IMG/VR virus record: IMGVR_UViG_2684623189_000006
Strand: one strand, 5' to 3'
Source: a virus
Taxonomy: Duplodnaviria > Heunggongvirae > Uroviricota > Caudoviricetes
DNA: 38,661 nucleotides
Shown here: in pieces, positions 2,621 to 38,661 of the stretch
Numbering within the stretch: position 1 is the first letter of the stretch
How the letters are laid out: every line of letters begins with the position of its first letter
The notes under the pieces: generated by a model
Database searches by the model: none
Told to the model about the DNA's origin: nothing
Seen by the model: the letters and a program-made list of their open reading frames with translations, nothing else
Position numbers and translations under genes: made by a program

Positions 2621-2732
2621 AACTGAAGTTGCCCTGAAAATGAAATTTTTTTGCACAACCGCAGAACTTTTCCGCAGGGCATCAGTCTTAATTAGTGCCA
2701 CTGCTTTTCTTTGATGTCCCCATTTTGTGGAG

Positions 2733-2778
2733 CCCATCAACCCCGCCATTTCGGTTCAAGGTTGATGGGTTTTTTGTT
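2733..2778 (+). terminator. Rho-independent terminator downstream of ybjL
   Basis: Stem cccatcaacc(2733-2742)/ggttgatggg(2760-2769) followed by tttttttgttg. Confidence 0.65.
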
Positions 2779-25279: not shown

Positions 25280-25879
25280 CTACTGTTTCTTAGAAGTAAT
25301 GTAGCGTCTTACTACATCAGTTATTGTAGCAAAAGGTGCCGAAAGCAAGCTTATATCACCTTTAAAACCAAATTTTTTATAGTGGTCAGCAACTTTTTGA
25401 TTCAGGGCTTCAGGGATCCGAATCTCTTGACACCCAACCGCGCTACCAAAAAGATATACCGCCCACAATGTAACCATGAACATGTTGCCGTAAAGAGGGT
25501 GCTCTACGTCATCATCTTTCACAAAAGATTCCACAAAATGGATCTCTATGACTCCAGCGTCCTCGTCAAAGGTGCACATAGCTGCGCCAGAAGGGATATG
25601 CCTAAGTGGCCCCGCAAGGAGCTTCAAACAAAATTCAAACTTATCACTTCGATTGCCAAACCGAGAAAAACCATAATCCCATTCTAGCTGAGCGTATCCT
25701 GTGGTCAGGATCACATAGTCTTCATCACTGATTGGACCAACAGCCAACGGCATCTTCAAAGTATCGAGGAGAAACTGAAGGTTACTTATACTTTGACTGG
25801 CAATCTGCTCTAAGTTCAATTCTCTGTCCTTCATGCTTACGACATTAAAGGCGACTACTTTAATGTCATTTTCGGACAA
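25280..25879 (-). CDS. Hypothetical protein (199 aa), cargo between Q and cos
   Basis: Long ORF with no recognisable family. The start is uncertain: TTG at 25879 or an internal ATG. Confidence 0.5.
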   Translation of the reverse strand: MSENDIKVVAFNVVSMKDRELNLEQIASQSISNLQFLLDTLKMPLAVGPISDEDYVILTTGYAQLEWDYGFSRFGNRSDKFEFCLKLLAGPLRHIPSGAAMCTFDEDAGVIEIHFVESFVKDDDVEHPLYGNMFMVTLWAVYLFGSAVGCQEIRIPEALNQKVADHYKKFGFKGDISLLSAPFATITDVVRRYITSKKQ

Positions 25880-26104
25880 AGACTATAAATCTTTAATGAA
25901 ACAATAGCAGAACCTTTTAAAGGTTTGCTACCTATCACTGCAACTTGTGACAGAACACTAAATCTACAGCCAACTCCGGAACACATTCAACATTTATTTA
26001 AATCCCTTCAAACAAGATTGCACAAAAACGCGCCCTCCCTTTCAGAAGAAAACCATCAGCGGGCCTGAGGCTAAGTGAATTTTACTATTTCAACCCGCGG
26101 CGTG

Positions 26105-26130
26105 CGCTCGTATCCCCGCCACGCCTGCCC
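26105..26130. other. Probable cos site (cohesive-end region)
   Basis: The minus strand reads GGCGTGGCGGGGA..., which matches the first 13 nt of the P2/186 cohesive end as I recall it. Confidence 0.5.
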
Positions 26131-26505
26131 GCTTTATGTAGTGGTTTTCATGCACCTGCATGACATGAGCAAAAGCCCGCCAGTTCTGGCGGGCCTTAAC
26201 AAAAACGAGCCTCAAACGTTCATGCAAACTCATGCAGCATATACATACACTACATCAACAGCATCCATTGCTATCATTTCCAGTTCGCTTCCTACAACAT
26301 CATTGCGAATAGTTATGTTACCAAGCGGCTTTTTCATACCTTTTCGGCATGACACTTCAGACGCACCAATACTGACGTGTAATGCTTCCCCCGCAACGTC
26401 AACCCACTTAATGGTAATTTAATGTAGTTGCATGAGACGAAAAAATCTCCATAGTTGACAGACTCTATGAATGCAGCATCACTAGCAAGCATGAATAAAC
26501 ATGCA

Positions 26506-27210
26506 TCATCTAACAGATACTTTTGCATAAATCAAAGGCCTATCCGAAGAGCCATTTTTACGTACGACCACTCCACTGATATCATGGTTTTTACTAAGAT
26601 CTCGTAATGCGGCGCACAATGCCTTGTTGACATACCCTAGATGATTGTCGTTTTTCGTTACTAATATGGCCAGCGGATCAACAGTATTGGTATCTTCATT
26701 GCGCAATATGACTTCATCACCAATTGATATCTCGTCAAGAGCTAGACGCCCTTCCTTAATCATGTGTCTCGTTCCGGCGACCTCCATGACATAATCAAAA
26801 GGTGGCCGAATAGAAGACAAGTCTGGGACAAAATAAAAACCATCACTAGCCACTTTTCCGCCAGTACAAGCGAGCAAAACGAAGTCATTCTCTCTAAAAT
26901 CAGCAGGAAGACGAAACGTCAGCAAGTAATCGGCAAAATCTTCTCTTTTCCTGGAGGGTAACCTTCTTGAAAAGGTTTGCATAACGTCTTTGCGATGAGT
27001 CGTAACTTTTATGTCAAAAGCAGGAAAACCGTGAAAGCCTTTATCCCCAGCTTTAGCAAAATCTTTGCTATCCGTAAGATAATTAAACTCGTAGCCTTCA
27101 GACTCATCTTGAAGAAGTTCACCAACGACATAGCGAGAGCCGCCGTCGGTCGGTTGCCATGTCAGTAAGAGCCTACTTGGCATGGGAATTTTTTCTATTA
27201 AGATAGTCAT
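26506..27210 (-). CDS. HIRAN-like domain protein (234 aa), third gene of cargo operon
   Basis: The C-terminal region (DPLAILV...LGYVNKALCAALRDL...GVVVRKNG) resembles the HIRAN fold motif. Its ATG overlaps the upstream stop (ATGA) and has an AAGGTG Shine-Dalgarno. Confidence 0.5.
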   Translation of the reverse strand: MTILIEKIPMPSRLLLTWQPTDGGSRYVVGELLQDESEGYEFNYLTDSKDFAKAGDKGFHGFPAFDIKVTTHRKDVMQTFSRRLPSRKREDFADYLLTFRLPADFRENDFVLLACTGGKVASDGFYFVPDLSSIRPPFDYVMEVAGTRHMIKEGRLALDEISIGDEVILRNEDTNTVDPLAILVTKNDNHLGYVNKALCAALRDLSKNHDISGVVVRKNGSSDRPLIYAKVSVR

Positions 27211-28118
27211 GAAGTAACACCTTTAATCAGTTCAATACGCATGTTTGTTACACGAACAATCCATGCAGCACGTTCTCTAGTCAGCGGAACAGGGCAGTTT
27301 ATTTCCGTCAACTCCGCAAAAGTTGAGTCCCAAAAGTCATGGTTCAAACGAGCCAGTCTTTCAGCTACCCGCTGTTTTAATTCTTCTTTTTTATCACAAA
27401 GTTCTTTGATTAACTCTAAATGACCTAATCTCTGATACTCATCTTTGCCCAGAGTTTTACGCAAATGATGCTTTCCCCGGCTAACATGCTCCCTGAGTCT
27501 ATGATCGGTCCAATCAGCAACATGTTCCGGAAAGCGTTCGTAGCATAAGCTCGTACCATTATCGAAAAATGGTGCAAGCTGACACTCGCTGGTTAAAGGG
27601 GAGAAGATAAACCCCCAGTTTTCTTGATGTCTATCTGTATTACCTATTACTGCGTCAAAGAGAGCCATATTCTCCAACCACTCAACATAGTCAACTTTAA
27701 GAGCTTTCGCGATAATCCTCAGCCCTTCAATGGAATGCTTAGCTCCTTTCTCACGATCAAAATTTGGATCTCTTCGAACAAAGTAATCACCAGCGGGAGC
27801 AAATTTCTCATAATCTTTATGATGAAACCACTCAATGAGGGCCCCGCAAAACGTATGCCCCAAATCATTAGTCTTTAACGAAGGAACTGCTTTGGGGACA
27901 TTAAAACCAAGCTGCAATCCAATCCTGTAGGCAACGATCTCACACCAAAATTGATCTGGGTATTTTTTAATACTTCTCTTAAAAAGATACGGCCACGATG
28001 CTTTGATACCATGGGGGGCAACATCAGGGGAAATAACCAATGCCTTAGAGCGAGCACCAACAGGATACTGTGCGAAAACATCTAGCTCAGTCCAATAGGT
28101 TACATCTAAGCAATCCAT
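27207..28118 (-). CDS. HipA-like / PI3K-PI4K-like protein kinase-fold protein (303 aa)
   Basis: Carries the catalytic-loop-like motif DAVIGNTDRHQENWGFIF (D-x-H-x-x-N) typical of HipA-like Ser/Thr kinases. Confidence 0.55.
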   Translation of the reverse strand: MDCLDVTYWTELDVFAQYPVGARSKALVISPDVAPHGIKASWPYLFKRSIKKYPDQFWCEIVAYRIGLQLGFNVPKAVPSLKTNDLGHTFCGALIEWFHHKDYEKFAPAGDYFVRRDPNFDREKGAKHSIEGLRIIAKALKVDYVEWLENMALFDAVIGNTDRHQENWGFIFSPLTSECQLAPFFDNGTSLCYERFPEHVADWTDHRLREHVSRGKHHLRKTLGKDEYQRLGHLELIKELCDKKEELKQRVAERLARLNHDFWDSTFAELTEINCPVPLTRERAAWIVRVTNMRIELIKGVTS

Positions 28119-28133
28119 AGCTAAGTCCTATAT

Positions 28134-28688
28134 TTATTTTTTATTTAAATTCATATAGATGTGAGAAACCTGTGCGATCTGAAATAAAACATCATCGAAT
28201 GCTGTGTGCCTAATGCCAGTGAAATTTTTATCAGCATGAGAAAAAATTCCTTTGCTTTCACCAAGTGCTAAGATGGTTCTAACGTCAAGAGTATCTCTGA
28301 ATGACCATGGGCAATCCAGACCCGCCTGTAACAGGGCATGATGCATGATCGTGCAGTCAAACTCTTTCCCGTTTCCCCACACTTTTACTCGGCCAGTACG
28401 ATTATGAAGAATAAATGCCACAAATTCATTCAGAACCTCTAAAAGGTCCTTAGTGCCATCAAAATTTTCGTTTTTAGCTTCAGTACTTTGATTCATCCAC
28501 CACTTTACAGTAGAGGGGGCAATGGTTCTGCCTGCTTGTTCATGATCAAGCGAAATAACTTGATAGAAACCCGGACCAATCTCGCCAGTCTCCGGCACGA
28601 AAAAAGCCGCACCAACTGAAAGGATATAAGCTGTTTTTTCAACATCCAATGTTTCTATATCTAACATTACATGATTCATAAGAAGCAA
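28134..28688 (-). CDS. DEDDh-type 3'-5' exonuclease (DnaQ-like fold), first gene of cargo operon
   Basis: N-terminal MLDIETLD (Exo I motif) and C-terminal HTAFDDV (H-x4-D, Exo III motif). The start is uncertain: TTG at 28688 or ATG at 28679. Confidence 0.6.
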   Translation of the reverse strand: MLLMNHVMLDIETLDVEKTAYILSVGAAFFVPETGEIGPGFYQVISLDHEQAGRTIAPSTVKWWMNQSTEAKNENFDGTKDLLEVLNEFVAFILHNRTGRVKVWGNGKEFDCTIMHHALLQAGLDCPWSFRDTLDVRTILALGESKGIFSHADKNFTGIRHTAFDDVLFQIAQVSHIYMNLNKK

Positions 28689-28852
28689 TTGAAACCATTT
28701 AGTAAAAATTGAAAGCTATCACCACATTAATGCATGGCATGTACATTTGTGGACGAAAACAAGTATTCTGATTATAACCCAAGTGAAAAGCTCAAGTGTC
28801 GTAACTTTCACTCGGTTGTTTTCAGTTTCGAAAAACTACTGGGAAGATCCAT

Positions 28853-29023
28853 CTAGTGGTTGTATTCATGAGCGCGAATTCTCGCCATCAGCTCATCAGT
28901 CAACTCAGAAACCCACTGCAGAGCCAGCCCCTTCTCTTCATCACTACACTCACTAGCCGCTACAAGCTTAAGAAAAAAATCAATGCGCTGGAGCTTCAAA
29001 GACTCCAAAAAATAGTCCTGCAT
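28853..29023 (-). CDS. Small SOS-regulated protein (56 aa; not in the supplied ORF track), possible Tum-like antirepressor
   Basis: ATG at 29023 preceded by an AGGAGGAAAG Shine-Dalgarno. It translates to MQDYFLESLKLQRIDFFLKLVAASECSDEEKGLALQWVSELTDELMARIRAHEYNH. A perfect LexA box lies about 45 bp upstream. Confidence 0.45.
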   Translation of the reverse strand: MQDYFLESLKLQRIDFFLKLVAASECSDEEKGLALQWVSELTDELMARIRAHEYNH

Positions 29024-29065
29024 CTTTCCTCCTATGACACCACAAGCAATACTGTATGCACAACC

Positions 29066-29085
29066 ACTGTTTATATTTACAGTAT
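29066..29085. promoter_or_regulatory. LexA (SOS) box
   Basis: aCTGTttatatttACAGta matches CTGT-N8-ACAG exactly and is AT-rich inside. It sits in the A-distal intergenic region upstream of the small minus-strand ORF. Confidence 0.6.
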
Positions 29086-29175
29086 ATAATAATCTTACTG
29101 ATGTAAAACGTTTTTTACGTTCATCAGCCTGATATGCCTGGTATTATTAAGAGCACGAATTGTTAACCCACGTGA

Positions 29176-31590
29176 TTAATACAGGTTCCGCCACTTATCA
29201 TCTTCCTGCAAACGCTGGTTCCGATAGAAGATACGCAGGCCTGCTCCTGACGGAATACTGCCACCGCGAAGGAGTAAATCGACCTCTTTCTCGCTGCCAT
29301 CAAATCCTCTTGACTTCAGTTCATAGACGAGCTGCTGACGCTGATACTCTGTAATTCGCTGTTTGTAGTCTTTACGCCGTTTCGGTTTCACCAGGCGTAA
29401 TCTTGCTGCCAGTTCCTGGCGCTCTTTTTTGCTCATACTATGCAGGTAATCGTGCAACTCCTTGTCATCCATACAGGTAATGTCAGTTCTGGTATCCCCA
29501 TCTGTTGATTTATCTTTCTCCTGTTGGTTCAAATTTTCAGCAAGGGGACAGTTATTGCCACGAGTCCAAGGGGCGCAAGCGCCCTGGTCGGCTGCCGCCT
29601 CCTGAACGTCAACGGCCTTACGAACCATTTTCCACTTCACTGCATGAGTACAAATCTTGCCCTCTGCAATGGGTGACCAGATGCCATAAATACGAATACC
29701 GTGATCGCCATAGGCGGTCGGCTCTTCGTTAATTTCATAAGCTGTTCTGATAAGGTGATATTTGCGGGGAACCAGTACGCCGCCCTGCTTCATAATGTAG
29801 GTGGCAAAACAACCAGCATCAGCAGCAGCCAGGATTGCATCAAGGCGCGGGTTATCCAGTACCGGCGCACCTGCTTTTTTGTCCCCCTGTTGCCTTGCCG
29901 CCTGACCAGCCAGCAATCGCAGTTCACGGTAAGCCTGACGCCCCGGAATGCCAAAGAAGCGGAATTGCTGAACACGATGCAGAGACGCCCAAGCATTAAC
30001 GTATTCAGCATTATCACGCAGGGATTTCCCCGTTTCCTTGCTGATCTCGCCAGCCAGACCACGCCCGTCCATGTTCTTACTGATGTATTTCGCGATGTAG
30101 CTTGTTGGCGTACCTTTGCGCGGGTTAATCAACTCAGACTTAAAGCGCGGCCCAGTGTTATTGCCCAGCTCCTCGCGGTCTTCACGGATGGCAAACTTAC
30201 GCAGTAATGCAGTGATGGCGCGGCGGTCTTTTTTGCGCATAAAACACAACAGGTGCCAGTGAACTGTACCGTCATGATGCGGCTCAGCCACCCGCACGCC
30301 ATACCAGCGCAATCCGGCTTTGTGCATCGCCTTACGAAATGCAGCAAACATGCCGACCAGATAATCACTACTTTGTCTTACCGTCGCATTTGTCCAGGTT
30401 GGGTTGGGCCTGCCGTTATTTAGCGTGGAATGGAAACGTGACGGACAGGTGATGGTGTAGAAAACGGCGCAGTCACCGCGCATTTCCGCGATAAGCTCCA
30501 GGCCTTTAACACAGGCCATCATCTCATTGCGGCGATGCGCAGGGTTGCTGCTGCTGGCGTTTACCACATCCTCCATGTCCAGCGTGTCGCCGTCTTCGTT
30601 CACCAGTTCATGAGAACGAAAAAACTCCAGCGACTTACGGCGCTGCTCACGTTTATGCATCACGGCTTCATAGCTGACATAGGGAGATGCTTTTTTGCTG
30701 ACCAGGCAAACAGCACGCAACTGCTCTTCCCGCCATTCGCAACGCATCTTCCATAATTTCCGGTACCACCAGTCGGCGCACAACATACGCGCCAGCGAAC
30801 CCGGAATGAGTTCATAGGGCACGGGTTTACGGCGGTTTCTTTTCCGGCGGAGTTGATCAAACGCAGGCGGGATGACATCCAGACGCAGGGTTTCCGCTGC
30901 CACCTTTTCCCATGTCTTGCGGATTTCTTCTGGCTTAACGTCATCGGTGACATACAAATCGCCACAAGCTGCATCAAGGCACATGCTCATATGCGCAGCG
31001 ACAAGGGTAGACAAGCGTTTCACCTGATCCTGACTCATTTCAGGCAGGATCAGCAGGCCGTCCAGCCCTTCATGGCTTGCCATAAAGCGAAAAGAAGTGG
31101 ATAGCTGACTGTCGCGTACATGCTCCAGTCGTTCCAGACATGGCTTAATCGTCTCACGCAAATAGCGGGAATAAGCCTTTGGCCTGCCTAGGCTGCTGAA
31201 GTATTCAATACGTTGCAACAGCGGCTTGCTGATATGGGAAGGCTGGGCATTGACGTCCGCCAGAATGACCATATCTGGATTAAAACGCTGCTGCTCATGC
31301 GCCAGCTTTGCCCGGCTAATGAGCTTATCCTGCTCCATTTCGCGTTGGACAGGATCACGGGATTCATTAAAGAAATAACGCTCCCAGACCTGATCACTCA
31401 GTGCCTCGCGGCGCAGTTGTTCCTGCTCGTTATCGGCAGCGTACAGAGTGATCAGGTTTGAAAGCGCAGAAACCGGCGCAACTTCCGCCGGGTCCAGATA
31501 AGGGTTAATAGCCTTTTTCGGGCTGTTCCATGAGAATGCTGCGGCGGCCTCGTTAAAGCCGCTGCAGTTGTTCATATCAGCATGGCTCAT
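29176..31590 (-). CDS. A: Replication initiation protein A (rolling-circle nickase)
   Basis: An 804-aa ORF; P2/186 gpA-like sequence and position. Confidence 0.85.
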
Positions 31591-32443
31591 GCACGCACTC
31601 CGTACACGGCAGAACTATCCACGCCACGCGAAGGCTCAAATCCCACCCAGCAGCGCGCCCAGAAACAGCGATGATTTCTGTTGCAGATTTACTCTCACCA
31701 GCTGCTACGCCGATGCTGCGTTTTGCCTTGATGTAGTGGTGAGTAAAATTGCGATACAGCGAACGGATCAGGGATGTGTCACTGTTAGAAACAATGACCG
31801 GATGTCCTTCTGATGACCGATGTTCAAGAACGGATGCCAGGTGATACTGGTCATCTTCAGTGAAGCCGTCAGTGTGATAACCGGAAAACGTGCCGTCATA
31901 CGGCGGATCGCAATACACCACATCCCCCGCCTTCAACATCGCCAGCGTTTCATCAAAGCTGGCGCAGATAAACGTTGCCCGCTGGGCTTTTTCTGCAAAT
32001 GCGCGAATTTCTTTTTCTGGGAAATACGGATTTTTATAATTACCGTAGGGAATGTTGAAATGCCCGCTCTTGTTATAGCGACATAAACCACGGTAACCGT
32101 GACGATTGAGATACAGGAAATATACCGCTTTCATGAAATCAGTAATTTCATTTGAGTAATTAAACTCCTGCCTTATGTTGTAATAAGCCACCTCCCTGTT
32201 TGCTTCCTTAAATAAAACTCTGGCGCGAGATATAAACGATTCACAATCAGCGGCAACCTTTTTATAGAGGTTGATTAAATCAGGATTAATATCCGCAACC
32301 AGATAGCTTGGATAATCCGTCTCCATCATCACAGCACAGGAACCCGCGAAAGGTTCAACCAGTCGCGGGCCAGCAGGAAGGTGTTTTTTCAGTTCGGACA
32401 TAATTGCGGTTTTATTTCCCGCCCATTTCAGGATGGTGCTCAT
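31577..32443 (-). CDS. DNA adenine methyltransferase (Dam-like, D12 class)
   Basis: N-terminal LKWAGNK and DPPY catalytic motifs. Start taken at the ATG at 32443 (MSTILKW), overlapping the upstream stop (ATGA). The 3' end overlaps the A start by 14 nt. Confidence 0.8.
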
Positions 32444-32742
32444 ACAGCACCTCCTGCAATAACATATCCTAAAGCTTCTAATGGGGTTAATGAGCGAATT
32501 GATAGCATCACCCATTGTTCTGAAACTGCCATGACGTCATTAACCGGAAGCACATGAGAGATAACCGCGGCCCATTCCCTACCCGTAAATACGCCATGCT
32601 TCCATTCGCAAAGAGAAAGAACATCACCAACTTTATAGCCACGATCGTCTTTACGAAGTTCAGCCGTCTTTTGACCTGCAACCACAGCGTTGAAATACTT
32701 AGGTGCAATTTTTAATTGATGGATACGCACAGCCCCTGTCAT
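32440..32742 (-). CDS. ASCH/DUF3850-like small protein
   Basis: About 100 aa. Start taken at the ATG at 32742 ([17 protein letters not shown]...), overlapping the TraR stop (ATGA). Confidence 0.5.
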
Positions 32743-34918: not shown

Positions 34919-35797
34919 ATGAATTTCAAAAACGGAGGACAGGCAGTCATAACGCGCATGCTTGAAGCGTATGGATTCAAGACGCGGCAAGCCCTATGTG
35001 AACAGTTCAATGTATCTGCAAGTACTATGGGAACGCGCTGGATGCGTGACGCATTTCCTGCTGACTGGGTAATTCAGTGTGCAATTGAAACAGGAGCATC
35101 TATAGAGTGGCTCTCATTCGGAAAAGGCGTGCCATTTCCTAAGAATACCGAAGTTCCCGCTAAATTAGAGGAACCAGCATCATTGGTTCAATATGTTCCC
35201 AAAGCCACCACCAACGAGAACCCAATTGTGAACCATCCAAATCTGGATTCAGGTGGACGTAATGCGATAAACAGGCTAATGGAAGCGTATGGCTTTAAAA
35301 CAAGACAAGAACTTGCCGACCATTTGAATGTGTCTAAAAGCACAATGGCGAATAGATACTTGCGAGACACATTCCCAGCTGACTGGATCATAAGATGCTC
35401 GTTGGAAACAAGAACTTCTCTTTTATGGTTAGCAACTGGGCGCGGGCAAAAACTTGGAAGCGAAGAAAGTGAAGCTTTAGAAATTCCTAAAGTAAAACTT
35501 ATTGACAATCAAATTTTCGATGCTGGTCATTTATTGATAGATAAGTCCCTGCTTCCTCATTTTAATGATTTACTCGCAATTGAAGACGAACATTGCATAA
35601 ATATTGCACACATGAATAAAGCTAATGTTGAAGACGGAAGATGGATTGTTCAATACCAAAATAATTTCAAGTTAAAACAAATTTTTCTATTACCTGGAGG
35701 CAATCTTCGAGTAACAGACGATGATTTAACATTTGATTGTGAAAAAGAAGATATAAAATTAGTTGCCAAAATTTTCTCACAGTACCGTACTATTTAA
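34919..35797 (+). CDS. cI: CI-type immunity repressor (186 CI family) with tandemly duplicated N-terminal DNA-binding domain
   Basis: Two about 60-aa repeats (MLEAYGFKTRQ...ETGASIEWLSFGKG and LMEAYGFKTRQ...ETRTSLLWLATGRG) followed by a 186-CI-like C-terminal domain. Confidence 0.75.
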   Translation: MNFKNGGQAVITRMLEAYGFKTRQALCEQFNVSASTMGTRWMRDAFPADWVIQCAIETGASIEWLSFGKGVPFPKNTEVPAKLEEPASLVQYVPKATTNENPIVNHPNLDSGGRNAINRLMEAYGFKTRQELADHLNVSKSTMANRYLRDTFPADWIIRCSLETRTSLLWLATGRGQKLGSEESEALEIPKVKLIDNQIFDAGHLLIDKSLLPHFNDLLAIEDEHCINIAHMNKANVEDGRWIVQYQNNFKLKQIFLLPGGNLRVTDDDLTFDCEKEDIKLVAKIFSQYRTI

Positions 35798-35812: not shown

Positions 35813-36841
35813 ATGGATTTTATAAAAAAACTCGAATTTGGAAATTATACTCTCCGTTTTGGTGATGATGTTTTGCTAGACTATTATGATGAAATTGTTT
35901 TCCCCTCTTTTTTGGAGATGGCAAACATCCGCAGAATATCTGACAAATCAGAGTTCTTTTTCATTGATACTGAATGCGTCATACTTGACGAAGAAGCAAC
36001 ACCCCCAGTACTCGGAATTAAAGGTCGGATTATTAAGAATACATTATTAACCAGAGAACAAGTATTTGATGGTGCTGATTTGGTTGAAGATCATCAAGAG
36101 CTTGAAACAGCCCCGAGCTCTTTCTTTCTTCTAATATTAAACACTCACAGATTAATTCTTTGCAAGGAAGTTAGTGGTGCTCCCACAATTCAAAACTTTC
36201 AGTCAACAAGTCAGTGTTTCTTAAACATAGAATATGAAAAATACATATCTCATTTATACGAAACCGCACAAGAAGAACGCAAAGAAAACCCTGACTTACC
36301 TCGAGTCACTAAAAAAAGCTTACGGAACGAAATCAAACGCCCGAAGCTAAGAATAACGCCGTTAACTGACAAACAAAGCCTAGAGCAATTTATTGATAAT
36401 TTTAATAAAATCCAAAATGTCTCAGTAAAACTTCTCCCTACAAATCAAGAAGAAATTGATAACGACGAATTTTGGGAGTCACTTGAAAGTGCCGGAGACG
36501 AAATGGGAAGTATTTCTACATCTATTCGCTTTTCAAACACCGATTCAGGCTTGAATCATGGTGCTGTTTTAGAACAACTCACATCAGCAACCAGATTGGC
36601 TAATTCAGGAATAAATATTAAAGGATATGATGACAATGGTGATATAATCAAAGGTAGCAATGATGACTTTGTTTTGTTAAGTGAGATGAATGAATTATCA
36701 AAGGATACGGTAGTAGCTGCAAATGAAAGTTATGAGCGGTATGAAAATCTTGTAGAAGAAGGTAAGATATCTCTACCCCGTTCTCTTTCACAAAAGACGA
36801 TTAGAATTATTAGCAATATATATGAAAGGTTTGGTCGATGA
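35813..36841 (+). CDS. Hypothetical protein (342 aa), AT-rich cargo gene 1 between cI and int
   Basis: Low-GC ORF with a GAGG Shine-Dalgarno and no recognisable family. Its stop overlaps the next start (ATGA). Confidence 0.6.
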   Translation: MDFIKKLEFGNYTLRFGDDVLLDYYDEIVFPSFLEMANIRRISDKSEFFFIDTECVILDEEATPPVLGIKGRIIKNTLLTREQVFDGADLVEDHQELETAPSSFFLLILNTHRLILCKEVSGAPTIQNFQSTSQCFLNIEYEKYISHLYETAQEERKENPDLPRVTKKSLRNEIKRPKLRITPLTDKQSLEQFIDNFNKIQNVSVKLLPTNQEEIDNDEFWESLESAGDEMGSISTSIRFSNTDSGLNHGAVLEQLTSATRLANSGINIKGYDDNGDIIKGSNDDFVLLSEMNELSKDTVVAANESYERYENLVEEGKISLPRSLSQKTIRIISNIYERFGR

Positions 36842-37518
36842 TAAATAAAATAGATGCTAAAGAAATAACCAAAGAGAAAAACCTTTGGGATGTTTACTTG
36901 CTCTGCAAACGGATTACTATTAGTACATTCCATATTTGTATTTTGCTCACAGCATCTATTTTTTTATTAACAAACTCTTTTTTTATTGAGAAGGATATGT
37001 CTCATTTAGTATCTGACATTAGAAACTGGGCTTTGATTGGTTTTAACTTTGCAGTGACAACCTTAGGTTTTCTCATTGCTGGTTTCACAATATTTGCAAC
37101 ACTATCCAAACCCGAGATGTTTCTTCAGATGATGTCAATACAACATAAAAAAACACAGATGCCCACGTTAAAATATAACTTTATGGCATTTATGAAAGTT
37201 TTCATCTCATTTATTACGTTTACTTTCATTTATCTAATAATAATTCTCTTTTGTCAAAAAGATGGAATAATTGGCAATATAATTGATTTATTTCCATATT
37301 CAAAATCGATAAAAGAATTAATTATTAAATTTGGATACTGTGTTATAGGGACTAGCCTTATTTACTTAGTGTTAGTAGTAAAGACATTTATTTTTAATAT
37401 CTACGCTATCATAATGAATAATATTCGTTGGGAGTTATACATTAAAAGAAAAGAACAAAGACTTTCCAGTAACAAAGAGACAATCAATAAAAACATAGAT
37501 GTAACTAAAATGCATTAA
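36838..37518 (+). CDS. Hypothetical integral membrane protein (226 aa, about 4 TM helices), AT-rich cargo gene 2
   Basis: Four long hydrophobic segments; translationally coupled to the upstream gene. Confidence 0.6.
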   Translation: MINKIDAKEITKEKNLWDVYLLCKRITISTFHICILLTASIFLLTNSFFIEKDMSHLVSDIRNWALIGFNFAVTTLGFLIAGFTIFATLSKPEMFLQMMSIQHKKTQMPTLKYNFMAFMKVFISFITFTFIYLIIILFCQKDGIIGNIIDLFPYSKSIKELIIKFGYCVIGTSLIYLVLVVKTFIFNIYAIIMNNIRWELYIKRKEQRLSSNKETINKNIDVTKMH

Positions 37519-37555
37519 ACACATAACATATGTATAGTTATCCAATCATCATACA

Positions 37556-37583
37556 TTGACACTGTATAAAAAAACAGTATAAA
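37556..37583 (+). promoter_or_regulatory. Sigma70-like promoter with embedded LexA box upstream of int
   Basis: TTGACA (37556-37561), a 16-nt spacer and TATAAA (37578-37583). The spacer contains CTGTataaaaaaACAG (CTGT-N8-ACAG). Confidence 0.5.
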
Positions 37584-37608
37584 TGCTCTCCACTGGAGGG
37601 CATTTTTT

Positions 37609-38661
37609 ATGGCAGTACGAAAACTCACCACAGGGAAATGGCTTTGCGAATGTTACCCCGCCGGACGAAGTGGGCGTCGTGTGCGTAAACAATTCGCCAC
37701 CAAAGGCGAAGCTCTGGCTTTTGAGCGTCACACGATGGAAGAAACCGAATCAAAGCCCTGGCTGGGCGAATCAGTGGATCGTCGAACCCTGAAAGACGTG
37801 GTTGAGCTATGGTTCAAATTACATGGTAAATCTCTGACTGCTGGACAGCATGTCTATGACAAATTGCTGCTGATGGTTGACGCTCTAGGCAATCCTCTTG
37901 CAACCAATCTCACCTCTAAAATGTTTGCCCACTATCGAGATAAACGCCTGACAGGTGAGATCTACTTCAGCGAGAAATGGAAGAAAGGAGCCAGCCCGGT
38001 CACCATTAACCTGGAGCAAAGCTATCTAAGTAGTGTTTTTAGCGAACTATCCCGCCTGGGCGAATGGTCGTATCCAAACCCACTGGAGAACATGCGAAAA
38101 TTCACCATCGCAGAAAAAGAGATGGCATGGCTTACCCATGAGCAGATTGTTGAACTGCTGGCTGATTGCAAACGTCAGGACCCAATTCTGGCACTGGTAG
38201 TCAAGATATGCTTAAGCACAGGCGCACGCTGGCGAGAAGCAATAAATCTTACCCGATCACAGGTGACTAAATACCGAATTACCTTTGTAAGAACGAAGGG
38301 GAAGAAAAACAGAAGCATCCCTATCAGTAAAGAGCTTTATGAAGAGATCATGGCGCTTGATGGGTTCAATTTCTTCACAGACTGCTATTTTCAATTTTTA
38401 TCCGTGATGGAAAAAACGTCTATCGTGCTCCCTCGCGGTCAACTCACACACGTTCTGCGCCATACGTTTGCGGCGCACTTCATGATGTCGGGTGGAAACA
38501 TTCTGGCCTTACAAAAAATTCTCGGACACCACGATATAAAAATGACTATGCGTTACGCACATCTGGCACCGGATCATCTAGAAACGGCGCTCCGTTTCAA
38601 TCCTCTGGCAACGCTGCCAAGTGGCGACAAAGTGGCGGCAGCGGTTGGCATTACCCCGTAA
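37609..38661 (+). CDS. int: Tyrosine recombinase / integrase (P2/186 family)
   Basis: A 350-aa ORF with the C-terminal catalytic region ...LSTGARWREA...HVLRHTFAAHFMMSGG...LGHHDIKMTMRYAHL (R...HxxR...Y) and a GGAGGG Shine-Dalgarno. Confidence 0.9.
   Translation: MAVRKLTTGKWLCECYPAGRSGRRVRKQFATKGEALAFERHTMEETESKPWLGESVDRRTLKDVVELWFKLHGKSLTAGQHVYDKLLLMVDALGNPLATNLTSKMFAHYRDKRLTGEIYFSEKWKKGASPVTINLEQSYLSSVFSELSRLGEWSYPNPLENMRKFTIAEKEMAWLTHEQIVELLADCKRQDPILALVVKICLSTGARWREAINLTRSQVTKYRITFVRTKGKKNRSIPISKELYEEIMALDGFNFFTDCYFQFLSVMEKTSIVLPRGQLTHVLRHTFAAHFMMSGGNILALQKILGHHDIKMTMRYAHLAPDHLETALRFNPLATLPSGDKVAAAVGITP

What the first reader, a model, noticed from the sequence alone, without database searches (positions are those of the whole stretch)
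28853..29085. Perfect LexA box with a small un-annotated ORF: possible Tum-like SOS antirepressor
aCTGTttatatttACAGta (29066-29085) lies upstream of a 56-aa ORF with a strong Shine-Dalgarno, in the region beyond gene A. In 186 this is where the LexA-controlled tum antirepressor gene resides, as I recall. The same promoter could also read through into the downstream three-gene cargo operon and make it SOS-inducible.
Basis: partly seen in the sequence, partly recalled or inferred. Interest (0 to 1): 0.45.

Follow-up and report, generated by a model that had tools for sequence, protein, structure and literature searches.

The report
SOS-controlled prophage antirepressor gene (tum)

Summary
CTGT-N8-ACAG lies at 29067-29082 and matches 17 of 20 positions of the LexA consensus. 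It overlaps the -10 of a 186-p95-like promoter (TTTACA, 17 nt, TACTGT). The promoter precedes a 56-aa ORF (28853-29023, minus strand) just downstream of replication gene A.

The ORF has no Pfam or NCBIfam family and no pairwise BLAST similarity to 186 Tum or PSP3 TumA. A profile built only from its own family nevertheless picks the 186 tum frame as the single significant hit among 680 six-frame segments (E 9e-10, Tum residues ~6-48). hhalign gives 96% probability.

The ORF is 95% identical to ECHS_RS04495 of E. coli HS prophage DuoHS. Published primers show this is the gene deleted as "tum"; that deletion, like lexA(Ind-), abolishes mitomycin-C induction. The box is kept in 39 of 40 complete related loci across many Enterobacterales genera.

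The local differences are minor. The ORF is 6 aa shorter than its relatives. The usual DinI-like downstream gene is replaced by an exonuclease plus a HipA-like/HIRAN pair. No terminator is seen before that cargo, so SOS read-through into it is plausible but untested.

Verdict: interpretation supported, biology already known, low interest.

The parts
29102..29107 (-). Putative -35 hexamer TTTACA of the tum promoter, preceded by an A-tract at 29111-29116.
   Evidence: Sequence read. Across 40 loci anchored on the LexA box, TTTACA/TTCACA and the upstream AAAAA are 80-95% conserved while the spacer varies. Phage 186 p95 has TTCACA at the equivalent place.
29065..29084 (-). LexA (SOS) box TACTGTAAATATAAACAGTG. 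Its first six bases, TACTGT (29084-29079), serve as the putative -10, 17 nt after the -35.
   Evidence: The architecture matches the annotated 186 p95 promoter, where the -10 TACTGT lies inside the LexA site. The core is perfect in 28 of 41 related loci and has one mismatch, mostly CCAG, in 11. LexA binding itself was not tested.
29049..29057 (-). Conserved ATACAGTAT element in the predicted 5' leader, resembling a LexA half-site. Its role is unknown.
   Evidence: Seen. The motif (A)TATATACAGT recurs at the same offset in most Escherichia, Citrobacter, Enterobacter and Klebsiella-type loci.
29028..29033 (-). Shine-Dalgarno sequence AGGAGG, 4 nt upstream of the ATG.
   Evidence: It is conserved in the close relatives aligned.
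28853..29023 (-). tumA-type antirepressor gene of 56 aa. It is a C-terminally shortened allele; relatives are 62 aa.
   Evidence: phrog_698, E 1.6e-33. Family HMM hits 186 tum at E 9.2e-10 and hhalign gives 96%. It is 95% identical to DuoHS Tum ECHS_RS04495 and 93% at the DNA level to the Fels-2 STM2728 region. AlphaFold2 predicts a two-helix hairpin, H4-22 and H27-54, with pLDDT 92. Codon-position variability is 34/18/52.
28689..28852 (-). A 164-nt spacer where homology to Fels-2-like phages ends, about 6-9 nt past the stop codon. The dinI-like gene is missing here. No intrinsic terminator was found. It contains a TATAAT hexamer with no usable -35.
   Evidence: The blastn match to relatives stops at query position 148, which is window position 28847 (alignment). 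There is no DinI hit in the window. There are no terminator or promoter hits on the minus strand. The RNA fold is unremarkable, z = -1.25.
26506..28688 (-). Cargo that may be co-transcribed: an Rv2179c-like 3'-5' exonuclease (28134-28688), a HipA_C-like kinase (27207-28118) and a HIRAN-domain protein (26506-27210).
   Evidence: Pfam hits. The kinase and HIRAN proteins match PADLOC candidate system PDC-M03 A and B, E 4e-36 each. The full arrangement is found in only 4 of 5426 complete E. coli genomes.
26170..26196 (-). The first strong terminator-like hairpin on this strand: GGCCCGCCA-gaac-TGGCGGGC followed by TTTTGCT. It is the predicted 3' end of the transcription unit.
   Evidence: Found by my own scan and confirmed by reading the sequence.
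34919..35797 (+). Presumed target: a 186-type CI repressor with two Phage_CI_repr HTH domains, one Phage_CI_C domain and no LexA-like self-cleavage domain.
   Evidence: Pfam PF07022 matched twice (E 4e-59) and PF16452 once (E 2e-16). It is 29-44% identical to the CI proteins of 186, Fels-2 and DuoHS.
29176..31590 (-). Replication gene A, the upstream neighbour that fixes the position of the module.
   Evidence: Pfam Phage_GPA, E 2.3e-127. A GPA C-terminus lies upstream of the small ORF in 36 of 41 related loci.

Best explanation
This is the SOS switch of a 186/Fels-2-type (P2-like) prophage of E. coli. In an undamaged lysogen, host LexA sits on the box at 29065-29084. The box overlaps the -10 of a promoter (TTTACA, 17 nt, TACTGT), so the promoter stays shut. 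DNA damage activates RecA, LexA cleaves itself, and the promoter fires. The 56-aa two-helix protein is then made. Like the N-terminal half of 186 Tum and like PSP3 TumA, it would bind the prophage's non-cleavable 186-type CI repressor and stop it binding its operators, starting lytic development.

Shown here: the sequence features, their conservation, the homology to Tum, and orthology to a genetically tested tum gene. Inferred: LexA binding at this site, TumA-CI binding, and activity of this shortened allele against this prophage's unusual CI with two HTH domains. The transcript probably continues into the exonuclease, HipA-like and HIRAN cargo genes and ends near 26170. That last step is only sequence-compatible.
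For: 1. The box and promoter have the same architecture as the mapped 186 p95 promoter.
2. The box is unique in the window at 3 or fewer mismatches, with 0 of 100 shuffles matching.
3. Across 41 loci from Escherichia, Citrobacter, Klebsiella, Enterobacter, Pantoea, Erwinia, Serratia, Tatumella and others, the CTGT/ACAG arms are kept (28 perfect, 11 with one mismatch). The inner 8 nt and the flanks vary. Of the two remaining loci, one (L049) is a frameshifted pseudogene with a decayed box and the other (L015) is cut off upstream by the end of its contig.
4. Homology to Tum: 186 Tum residues 1-69 hit phrog_698 (E 6e-6) and phrog_8554 (E 3e-12), the families that the window ORF hits at 2e-33 and 2e-8, in the same register 7-44. 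An HMM built from 32 family members with no Tum sequences finds only the 186 tum frame among 680 six-frame segments (E 9.2e-10). hhalign on alignments trimmed to the start codon gives 96% probability and E 4e-9.
5. Genetics in an orthologue: DuoHS ECHS_RS04495 is 95% identical, with an identical box and -35. The published delta-tum primers fuse exactly its ATG to its TGA. Both delta-tum and lexA(Ind-) block mitomycin-C-induced lysis.
6. Literature: Fels-2 and PSP3 have tum split into two genes, and the upstream PSP3 gene is the antirepressor (PMC3121763). In Fels-2, STM2727 is the most significantly changed LexA-regulon gene after the mutagen MX (lowest p-value, 5.5 to 14.8-fold) (PMC2225428).
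7. The prophage's CI is of the 186 type and has no self-cleavage domain, so it needs an antirepressor to respond to SOS.
8. The prophage appears structurally complete.
Against: Pairwise BLASTP to 186 Tum and to PSP3 TumA finds nothing, and the family HMM hits PSP3 TumA only at E 2.7.

This allele ends 6 residues early through a TAG that relatives lack, and its activity is untested.

Its CI is only 36-44% identical to the CI proteins of Fels-2 and DuoHS and has a duplicated HTH domain. Cross-reactivity of a nearly identical TumA with this CI is therefore assumed, not shown.

The -10 TACTGT matches only 3 of 6 consensus positions, and the generic promoter scan reports no promoter here.

The DinI-like partner found in about half of the related loci is absent. 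RefSeq flags the neighbouring dam gene as frameshifted, so some decay of this prophage is possible.
Confidence: 0.82

Rival explanations
1. The gene is a decaying remnant. The promoter and LexA box still work, but the shortened 56-aa protein no longer inactivates this prophage's divergent CI with two HTH domains. The element would then mainly act as an SOS-responsive promoter for the downstream exonuclease, HipA-like and HIRAN cargo genes.
For: There is a premature TAG relative to the 62-aa relatives, and the dinI-like partner has been lost at a recombination junction. The CI is only 36-44% identical to the CI proteins that pair with near-identical TumA proteins. The adjacent dam gene is flagged as frameshifted. 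No terminator lies before the cargo.
Against: The region homologous to 186 Tum (residues ~6-48) and both predicted helices (4-22 and 27-54) are intact, so only the tail is lost. Independent 55-56-aa alleles exist elsewhere (L036; P0028). About half of the related loci also lack dinI. The N-terminal HTH domains of CI are much better conserved than the C-terminal domain. The rest of the prophage looks complete.
Confidence: 0.12
2. The small protein is not an antirepressor. It would instead be an SOS modulator or a helper of the DinI-like protein, for example acting on RecA or LexA. The delta-tum phenotype in DuoHS would then be indirect or polar on dinI.
For: Direct binding to CI has been shown only for full-length 186 Tum (cited in PMC3121763). 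In most close relatives a dinI-like gene starts 11 nt after the ORF and could be translationally coupled to it.
Against: The DuoHS deletion is in frame and keeps the start and stop codons. SOS reporter activity is normal in delta-tum cells. The upstream PSP3 gene is reported to carry the antirepressor activity. Here and in 19 of 41 loci the ORF occurs without dinI. The homology is to the non-DinI half of Tum.
Confidence: 0.04
3. The palindrome and the ORF are chance features of an AT-rich intergenic region.
For: The CTGT-N8-ACAG core alone is expected 0.5 times per window, and 10 of 100 shuffles had two or more. The generic promoter scan finds nothing here.
Against: No shuffle reaches 17 of 20 matches to the consensus. 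The box, the -35 and the ORF are conserved across many genera with a coding pattern of substitution. The ORF matches phrog_698 at E 1.6e-33.
Confidence: 0.01

Closest known systems
Tum of E. coli HS prophage DuoHS (ECHS_RS04495; Phollow study, PMC12055606 and preprint PMC11195241)
   Same: The proteins are 95% identical over 56 aa. The -35, LexA box, leader and Shine-Dalgarno sequence are identical, and both genes sit directly after gene A. The DuoHS gene is genetically required for SOS (mitomycin C) induction, together with cleavable LexA.
   Different: The DuoHS protein is 62 aa and is followed 11 nt later by a DinI-like gene. The window copy stops 6 residues early and is followed by unrelated cargo. 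The DuoHS CI has one HTH domain (189 aa), whereas the window CI has two (292 aa) and is 44% identical.
Fels-2 STM2728 plus the DinI-like STM2726.1 (the split tum of Salmonella LT2)
   Same: The module is 93% identical at the DNA level across the end of gene A, the promoter and the ORF. The Fels-2 tum region is SOS-induced (PMC2225428) and is cited as the cause of the lethal lexA-null phenotype (Bunny et al. 2002, as cited in PMC3121763).
   Different: Fels-2 keeps the DinI-like second half. Its CI is 36% identical to the window CI.
Tum of coliphage 186 (146 aa, p95 SOS operon)
   Same: The genome position and promoter design are the same, with the LexA box overlapping a TACTGT -10. The N-terminal ~45 residues are homologous at profile level, sharing the motif RhxhhxRLxAxxxCxxxDxxxAL. 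The operon continues into a downstream accessory gene, orf97.
   Different: 186 Tum is a fusion with a C-terminal DinI-like domain and has several internal starts. Pairwise identity to the window protein is too low for BLAST to detect.
PSP3 TumA and TumB
   Same: Both have a split arrangement: a small upstream antirepressor gene (60 aa) behind a LexA box after gene A.
   Different: They belong to different PHROG families, phrog_1993 versus phrog_698, linked only by weak cross-hits (E 0.003; HMM E 2.7). PSP3 keeps tumB, and the window has no tumB.
Other LexA-controlled antirepressors (Gifsy GfoA/GftA, N15 AntC), as reviewed in PMC3121763
   Same: The logic is the same: LexA represses a small antirepressor that inactivates a non-cleavable phage repressor.
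   Different: No sequence relationship to them was seen or tested here. In Gifsy phages the gene order is dinI first and the antirepressor second.

Membership tests
186 Tum / PSP3 TumA-type antirepressor of P2-like (Peduoviridae) phages | Sequence homology to the N-terminal, non-DinI half of 186 Tum | tested here: met
   Met at profile level only. The family HMM hits the 186 tum frame at E 9.2e-10 and is the only significant hit among 680 segments. hhalign gives 96% probability and E 4e-9. PHROG cross-hits fall in the same register. Pairwise BLASTP is negative.
186 Tum / PSP3 TumA-type antirepressor of P2-like (Peduoviridae) phages | Gene lies immediately downstream of replication gene A on the same strand, with its own promoter | tested here: met
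   Gene A is at 29176-31590 and the ORF at 28853-29023, both on the minus strand. The layout is the same in 186, PSP3, Fels-2 and DuoHS, and a GPA C-terminus lies upstream in 36 of 41 related loci.
186 Tum / PSP3 TumA-type antirepressor of P2-like (Peduoviridae) phages | Promoter carries a LexA box that overlaps the -10 | tested here: met
   Met at the sequence level: TTTACA, 17 nt, then TACTGT inside the box, as annotated for 186 p95. The feature is conserved in 39 of the 41 loci; the two exceptions are a contig cut off upstream (L015) and a pseudogene (L049).
186 Tum / PSP3 TumA-type antirepressor of P2-like (Peduoviridae) phages | The cognate immunity repressor is of the 186 CI type, non-cleavable, with an HTH N-terminal domain and a CI_C domain | tested here: met
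   PF07022 matched twice and PF16452 once, with no peptidase S24 domain.
186 Tum / PSP3 TumA-type antirepressor of P2-like (Peduoviridae) phages | Required for SOS induction of the prophage | not testable with these tools
   Shown for the 95%-identical DuoHS orthologue, but not for this allele.
186 Tum / PSP3 TumA-type antirepressor of P2-like (Peduoviridae) phages | Binds CI and reversibly prevents operator binding | not testable with these tools
   Shown biochemically only for 186 Tum (Shearwin et al. 1998, as cited in PMC3121763).
186 Tum / PSP3 TumA-type antirepressor of P2-like (Peduoviridae) phages | A DinI-like moiety is fused to it (186) or encoded directly downstream (PSP3 tumB, Fels-2, DuoHS) | tested here: not met
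   There is no DinI-like sequence in the window, and homology to relatives ends just after the stop codon. DinI is also absent in 19 of 41 related loci, so this feature is accessory rather than defining.
Enterobacterial SOS (LexA) box | A CTGT-N8-ACAG palindrome with an AT-rich centre and TA flanks, close to TACTGTATATATATACAGTA | tested here: met
   The core is perfect and the 20-mer matches 17 of 20 positions, which is unique in the window. The 186 box matches 18 of 20 (read).
Enterobacterial SOS (LexA) box | LexA binds the site and represses transcription | not testable with these tools
   Indirect evidence only: lexA(Ind-) blocks induction of DuoHS, which has an identical box, and the Fels-2 tum region is induced by the mutagen MX.
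DinI family (considered for the small ORF itself) | Similarity to DinI or to the C-terminal half of Tum | tested here: not met
   The ORF has no Pfam hit. Its homology maps to Tum residues ~6-48, outside the DinI-like half.

The most novel reading that the evidence does not exclude
At this locus a recombination event removed dinI and any terminator. The LexA-repressed tum promoter would now head a ~2.9-kb operon: tumA', a 3'-5' exonuclease, a HipA-like kinase, a HIRAN protein, and a terminator at about 26170. A candidate anti-phage system (PADLOC PDC-M03) in the P2 gpA-gpQ defence hotspot would then be switched on by DNA damage together with prophage induction.

More generally, the first cargo gene of this hotspot is co-oriented with tum in 27 of 37 related loci. 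The two hotspot papers checked do not mention LexA or SOS control at all.
Probability: 0.35. Interest if true: 0.45.

Novelty: already known. Interest (0 to 1): 0.2.

Why it matters
The practical value is for annotation. About one in five complete E. coli genomes (1101 of 5426) carries this module. Yet RefSeq calls the gene 'hypothetical protein', and PHROGs lists phrog_698 as 'unknown function'. Pfam, NCBIfam and PADLOC have no model for it, and some records name it 'levan regulatory protein'.

Linking phrog_698 and phrog_8554 to 186 Tum and to the experimentally deleted DuoHS tum gene would let SOS-inducibility of P2-like prophages be predicted from sequence.

The only open biological point is whether defence cargo placed directly behind tum is expressed from the SOS promoter.

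Tried and rejected
- Pairwise BLASTP of the ORF against 186 Tum and PSP3 TumA gave no alignment. Profiles were needed to see the relationship.
- Pfam, NCBIfam and PADLOC have no family for the ORF.
- The generic promoter scan found nothing at the site. Its rule of at least 4 of 6 matches per hexamer would also miss the mapped 186 p95 -10 (TACTGT), so this is not counted as evidence against a promoter.
- The first hhalign run (97.7%) was inflated. Some database proteins carry mis-called N-terminal extensions that are translations of the conserved LexA-box leader. I trimmed both alignments to the start codon and repeated the run, which gave 96%.
- A Foldseek search of the AlphaFold2 model against BFVD gave no hit with E below 1. 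A two-helix hairpin is uninformative for this purpose.
- The search for related loci with the diverse alignment failed because no sufficiently conserved stretch was available. The single protein was used instead.
- Bunny et al. 2002 (PMC151935) is not held, so it is cited only through PMC3121763.
- A whole-word literature search for TumA/TumB returned only noise.
- The overlapping + strand ORF 28856-29089 (77 aa) was rejected. Substitutions among orthologues follow the codon phase of the minus strand.
- No DinI remnant was found in the 164-nt spacer.
- Rfam finds no RNA family in the region.

Full report
**What the window is.** The window is a P2/186-like prophage. It is 100% identical to part of the chromosome of E. 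coli FDAARGOS_1283. It includes replication gene A (29176-31590, minus strand; Pfam Phage_GPA, E 2e-127), a CII gene, and a 186-type CI gene. It also includes an integrase and an apparently complete set of structural genes.

**Checking the observation.** The + strand at 29065-29084 reads CACTGTTTATATTTACAGTA. On the minus strand this is TACTGTAAATATAAACAGTG. That is a perfect CTGT-N8-ACAG core and a 17-of-20 match to the LexA consensus.
- It is the only site in the window within three mismatches of the consensus, and none occurred in 100 shuffles.
- The bare core occurs twice in the window against 0.52 expected. The second copy is discussed under side observations.
- The identical RefSeq record annotates the ORF, but only as 'hypothetical protein'.

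**Promoter anatomy.** Read on the minus strand, the region is an A-tract (29116-29111), TTTACA (29107-29102), a 17-nt spacer, and then TACTGT (29084-29079). TACTGT forms the first six bases of the LexA box. The annotated and mapped p95 promoter of phage 186 has the same design: TTCACA, a -10 of TACTGT, and a LexA site beginning at that -10. PSP3 looks the same. LexA bound here would occlude the -10. The generic promoter scan misses the site because TACTGT matches only 3 of 6 consensus positions. It would miss 186 p95 for the same reason.

**Conservation.**
- In an alignment with Fels-2, SEN8, a Klebsiella phage, Cartapus and the distant ESSI2_ev015 (47% protein identity), the box and the -35 are invariant while the surrounding intergenic DNA diverges.
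- Among 41 loci from one genome per species, across more than 15 Enterobacterales genera, the core is perfect in 28 and has one mismatch in 11, mostly the natural CCAG variant.
- The two exceptions are a contig cut off 53 nt upstream and a frameshifted pseudogene whose box has also decayed.
- Anchoring 40 sequences on the box shows at least 95% conservation of TATACTGT and ACAGT. The A-tract and TTTACA/TTCACA are 80-95% conserved, and the spacer and the inner 8 nt vary.
- Substitutions inside the ORF fall mainly on third codon positions. Variable columns are 34/18/52 and entropy is 19/9/54. The ORF is therefore a real gene under purifying selection.
- About 1100 of 5426 complete E. coli genomes carry the segment from the end of gene A through this ORF at 90% identity or more.

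**What the protein is.** Pfam, NCBIfam and PADLOC have nothing for it. PHROGs places it in phrog_698 ('unknown function', E 1.6e-33), with weaker hits to phrog_8554 and phrog_1993. Pairwise BLASTP against 186 Tum and PSP3 TumA finds nothing. Profile methods do connect them.
- The first 69 residues of 186 Tum hit phrog_1993 (E 2e-23), phrog_8554 (E 3e-12) and phrog_698 (E 6e-6), in the same register 7-44. PSP3 TumA is a member of phrog_1993.
- I collected 50%-identity representatives of the window family and aligned 32 of them. I trimmed the alignment to the start codon and built an HMM.
- Searched against all 680 stop-to-stop six-frame segments of the whole 186 genome plus the PSP3 right end, the HMM's single significant hit is the tum frame (E 9.2e-10). 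It aligns to Tum residues ~6-48, the half that is not DinI-like.
- hhalign of the trimmed family against a Tum N-terminal family alignment gives 96% probability and E 4e-9. An untrimmed run gave 97.7%, but it was inflated by translated LexA-box leaders in mis-called database ORFs.
- The shared motif is roughly E-x-h-x-h-[QE]-R-[IV]-[ED]-h-h-A-R-L-x-A-x-x-x-C-x-x-x-D-[KR]-E-h-A-L-x-h-I-A-E-L.
- AlphaFold2 predicts a confident two-helix hairpin, helices 4-22 and 27-54, with pLDDT 92. Fold search gives nothing specific.

**Experimental anchor.** The Fels-2 orthologue STM2728 is followed by a DinI-like gene that the record annotates as similar to PSP3 TumB. Lemire et al. (PMC3121763) state that Fels-2 and PSP3 have tum split in two by a stop codon. 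They also state that the upstream PSP3 gene carries the antirepressor activity, citing Bunny et al. 2002.

E. coli HS carries prophage DuoHS, whose gene ECHS_RS04495 is 95% identical to the window ORF. Its -35, box, leader and Shine-Dalgarno sequence are identical to the window's. The Phollow study (PMC12055606; primers in preprint PMC11195241) made an in-frame 'delta-tum' deletion.
- The reverse complement of primer NHR24 is GTGGTGTCATAGGAGGAAAGATG followed by TGA. This 23-mer matches the window exactly at 29021-29043, ending on the ATG.
- Primer NHR28 continues TGAGGTGACTTTTATGCGCATTG. That is the stop codon of the small ORF plus the start of the dinI-like gene in Fels-2 and HS.
- The gene they deleted is therefore this ORF's orthologue. 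Both delta-tum and lexA(Ind-) abolish mitomycin-C-induced lysis and virion foci, and the SOS reporter stays normal in delta-tum cells.
- In Salmonella, STM2727 in the same Fels-2 operon is the most significantly changed LexA-regulon gene after the mutagen MX, rising 5.5 to 14.8-fold (PMC2225428).

**Mechanism.** The prophage's CI has 186-type HTH and CI_C domains and no LexA-like cleavage domain. It cannot sense RecA directly and needs an antirepressor. The proposed chain is DNA damage, LexA cleavage, promoter opening, TumA synthesis, CI inactivation, then lytic growth.

The sequence features, the homology and the orthology are shown here. LexA binding, TumA-CI binding, and activity of this particular allele are inferred.

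One weak inference concerns the target. TumA proteins that are 93-95% identical coexist with CI proteins that are only 36-44% identical overall. The N-terminal HTH domains of those CI proteins remain about 60-75% identical, while the C-terminal domains diverge. This fits the HTH domain being the target.

**What differs here.**
1. The ORF ends at codon 56 through a TAG where relatives read on for six more residues (...R-S-M-D-V-x-x). Homology to relatives stops 6-9 nt later. Both predicted helices and the Tum-homologous core are intact. Other 55-56-aa alleles exist.
2. The DinI-like gene is absent. This is also true in 19 of 41 related loci, so it is not exceptional.
3. In its place, after a 164-nt spacer, come three genes: an Rv2179c-like 3'-5' exonuclease, a HipA_C-like kinase and a HIRAN protein. 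The last two match PADLOC candidate system PDC-M03 A and B. The full arrangement occurs in only 4 of 5426 E. coli genomes and in no phage record.
4. This is the gpA-gpQ defence hotspot of P2-like phages (PMC9122126).

**Read-through.** No terminator-like hairpin lies on the minus strand between the ORF and the exonuclease gene, and the spacer's RNA fold is unremarkable. The spacer holds a TATAAT hexamer with no usable -35, judged by reading. The first strong terminator-like hairpin on this strand is at 26196-26170, after the HIRAN gene.

In 186, the p95 transcript passes a partial terminator into orf97, an exclusion gene. Among related loci, the first cargo ORF is co-oriented with tum in 27 of 37. 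SOS-driven expression of the cargo is therefore plausible but untested. The two hotspot papers I checked contain no occurrence of 'LexA' or 'SOS'.

**Verdict.** The element is a local allele of a known, genetically validated gene, so novelty is 'already known' and interest is low. What remains useful is the annotation gap (phrog_698 and RefSeq list it as hypothetical) and the testable possibility of SOS-coupled defence cargo.

Noticed in passing
window 37554-37590 (box at 37562-37577), upstream of the integrase gene 37609-38661 (+): The second CTGT-N8-ACAG in the window (CTGTATAAAAAAACAG) sits in the spacer of a near-consensus promoter: TTGACA, 16 nt, TATAAA. This lies directly upstream of int, which suggests a LexA-controlled integrase promoter. 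E. coli HS and STEC1587 have the same promoter with CTGG-N8-ACAG at this position. Several hundred E. coli genomes match this segment.
   Followed up: partly
window 34919-35797 (+): The CI repressor (292 aa) has two tandem 186-type HTH domains (Pfam Phage_CI_repr matched twice) followed by one CI_C domain. The CI proteins of 186, Fels-2 and DuoHS have a single HTH domain (189-210 aa). Similar double-HTH CI proteins seem to occur in Klebsiella P2-like phages.
   Followed up: partly
window 35813-37518 (+): Two overlapping ORFs (342 aa, and 226 aa that looks like a membrane protein) are inserted between cI and int. DuoHS has only a 63-aa ORF at this position. Neither ORF has any hit in Pfam, PHROGs or PADLOC. 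They may be lysogen-expressed cargo of unknown function.
   Followed up: partly
window 26506-28688 (-): An Rv2179c-like 3'-5' exonuclease is followed by a HipA_C-like kinase and a HIRAN-domain protein. The kinase and HIRAN protein match PADLOC candidate defence system PDC-M03 A and B (E 4e-36 each). The trio occurs in only 4 of 5426 complete E. coli genomes and in no phage record. phrog_26212 appears to be a fusion of the kinase and HIRAN parts.
   Followed up: partly
window 25280-26505: Between the HIRAN gene and a phrog_4350 ORF (25280-25879, minus strand) lies a stretch of about 630 nt with no convincing gene. It contains a strong terminator-like hairpin at 26170-26196 (minus strand).
   Followed up: no
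window 29049-29057 (-), in the leader of the tum gene: An ATACAGTAT element resembling a LexA half-site is conserved 8 nt downstream of the LexA box in most Escherichia, Citrobacter, Enterobacter and Klebsiella loci. It is absent in the Pantoea and Erwinia types, whose leaders are shorter. It might be a second, weak LexA contact or a feature of the leader.
   Followed up: no
window 2700-2778 (+): The host sRNA gene rybB (Rfam RF00110, 105 bits) lies near the start of the window, about 390 nt from the first phage-sized ORFs listed. In E. coli HS, prophage DuoHS lies between ybjL and rcdA. The window's prophage may therefore occupy the same chromosomal site.
   Followed up: no
window 31577-32515 (-): The DNA adenine methylase gene upstream of gene A is flagged as 'frameshifted' (pseudogene) in the identical RefSeq record. 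This could be a sign of some decay in this prophage.
   Followed up: no
database proteins P0253, P0168, P0159 and P0164: Several database versions of TumA-type proteins carry mis-called N-terminal extensions such as '...Y-x-Y-T-V...'. These are translations of the conserved LexA-box leader, and they artificially raise profile-profile scores between the families. Some records also name the protein 'levan regulatory protein', with no visible basis.
   Followed up: yes
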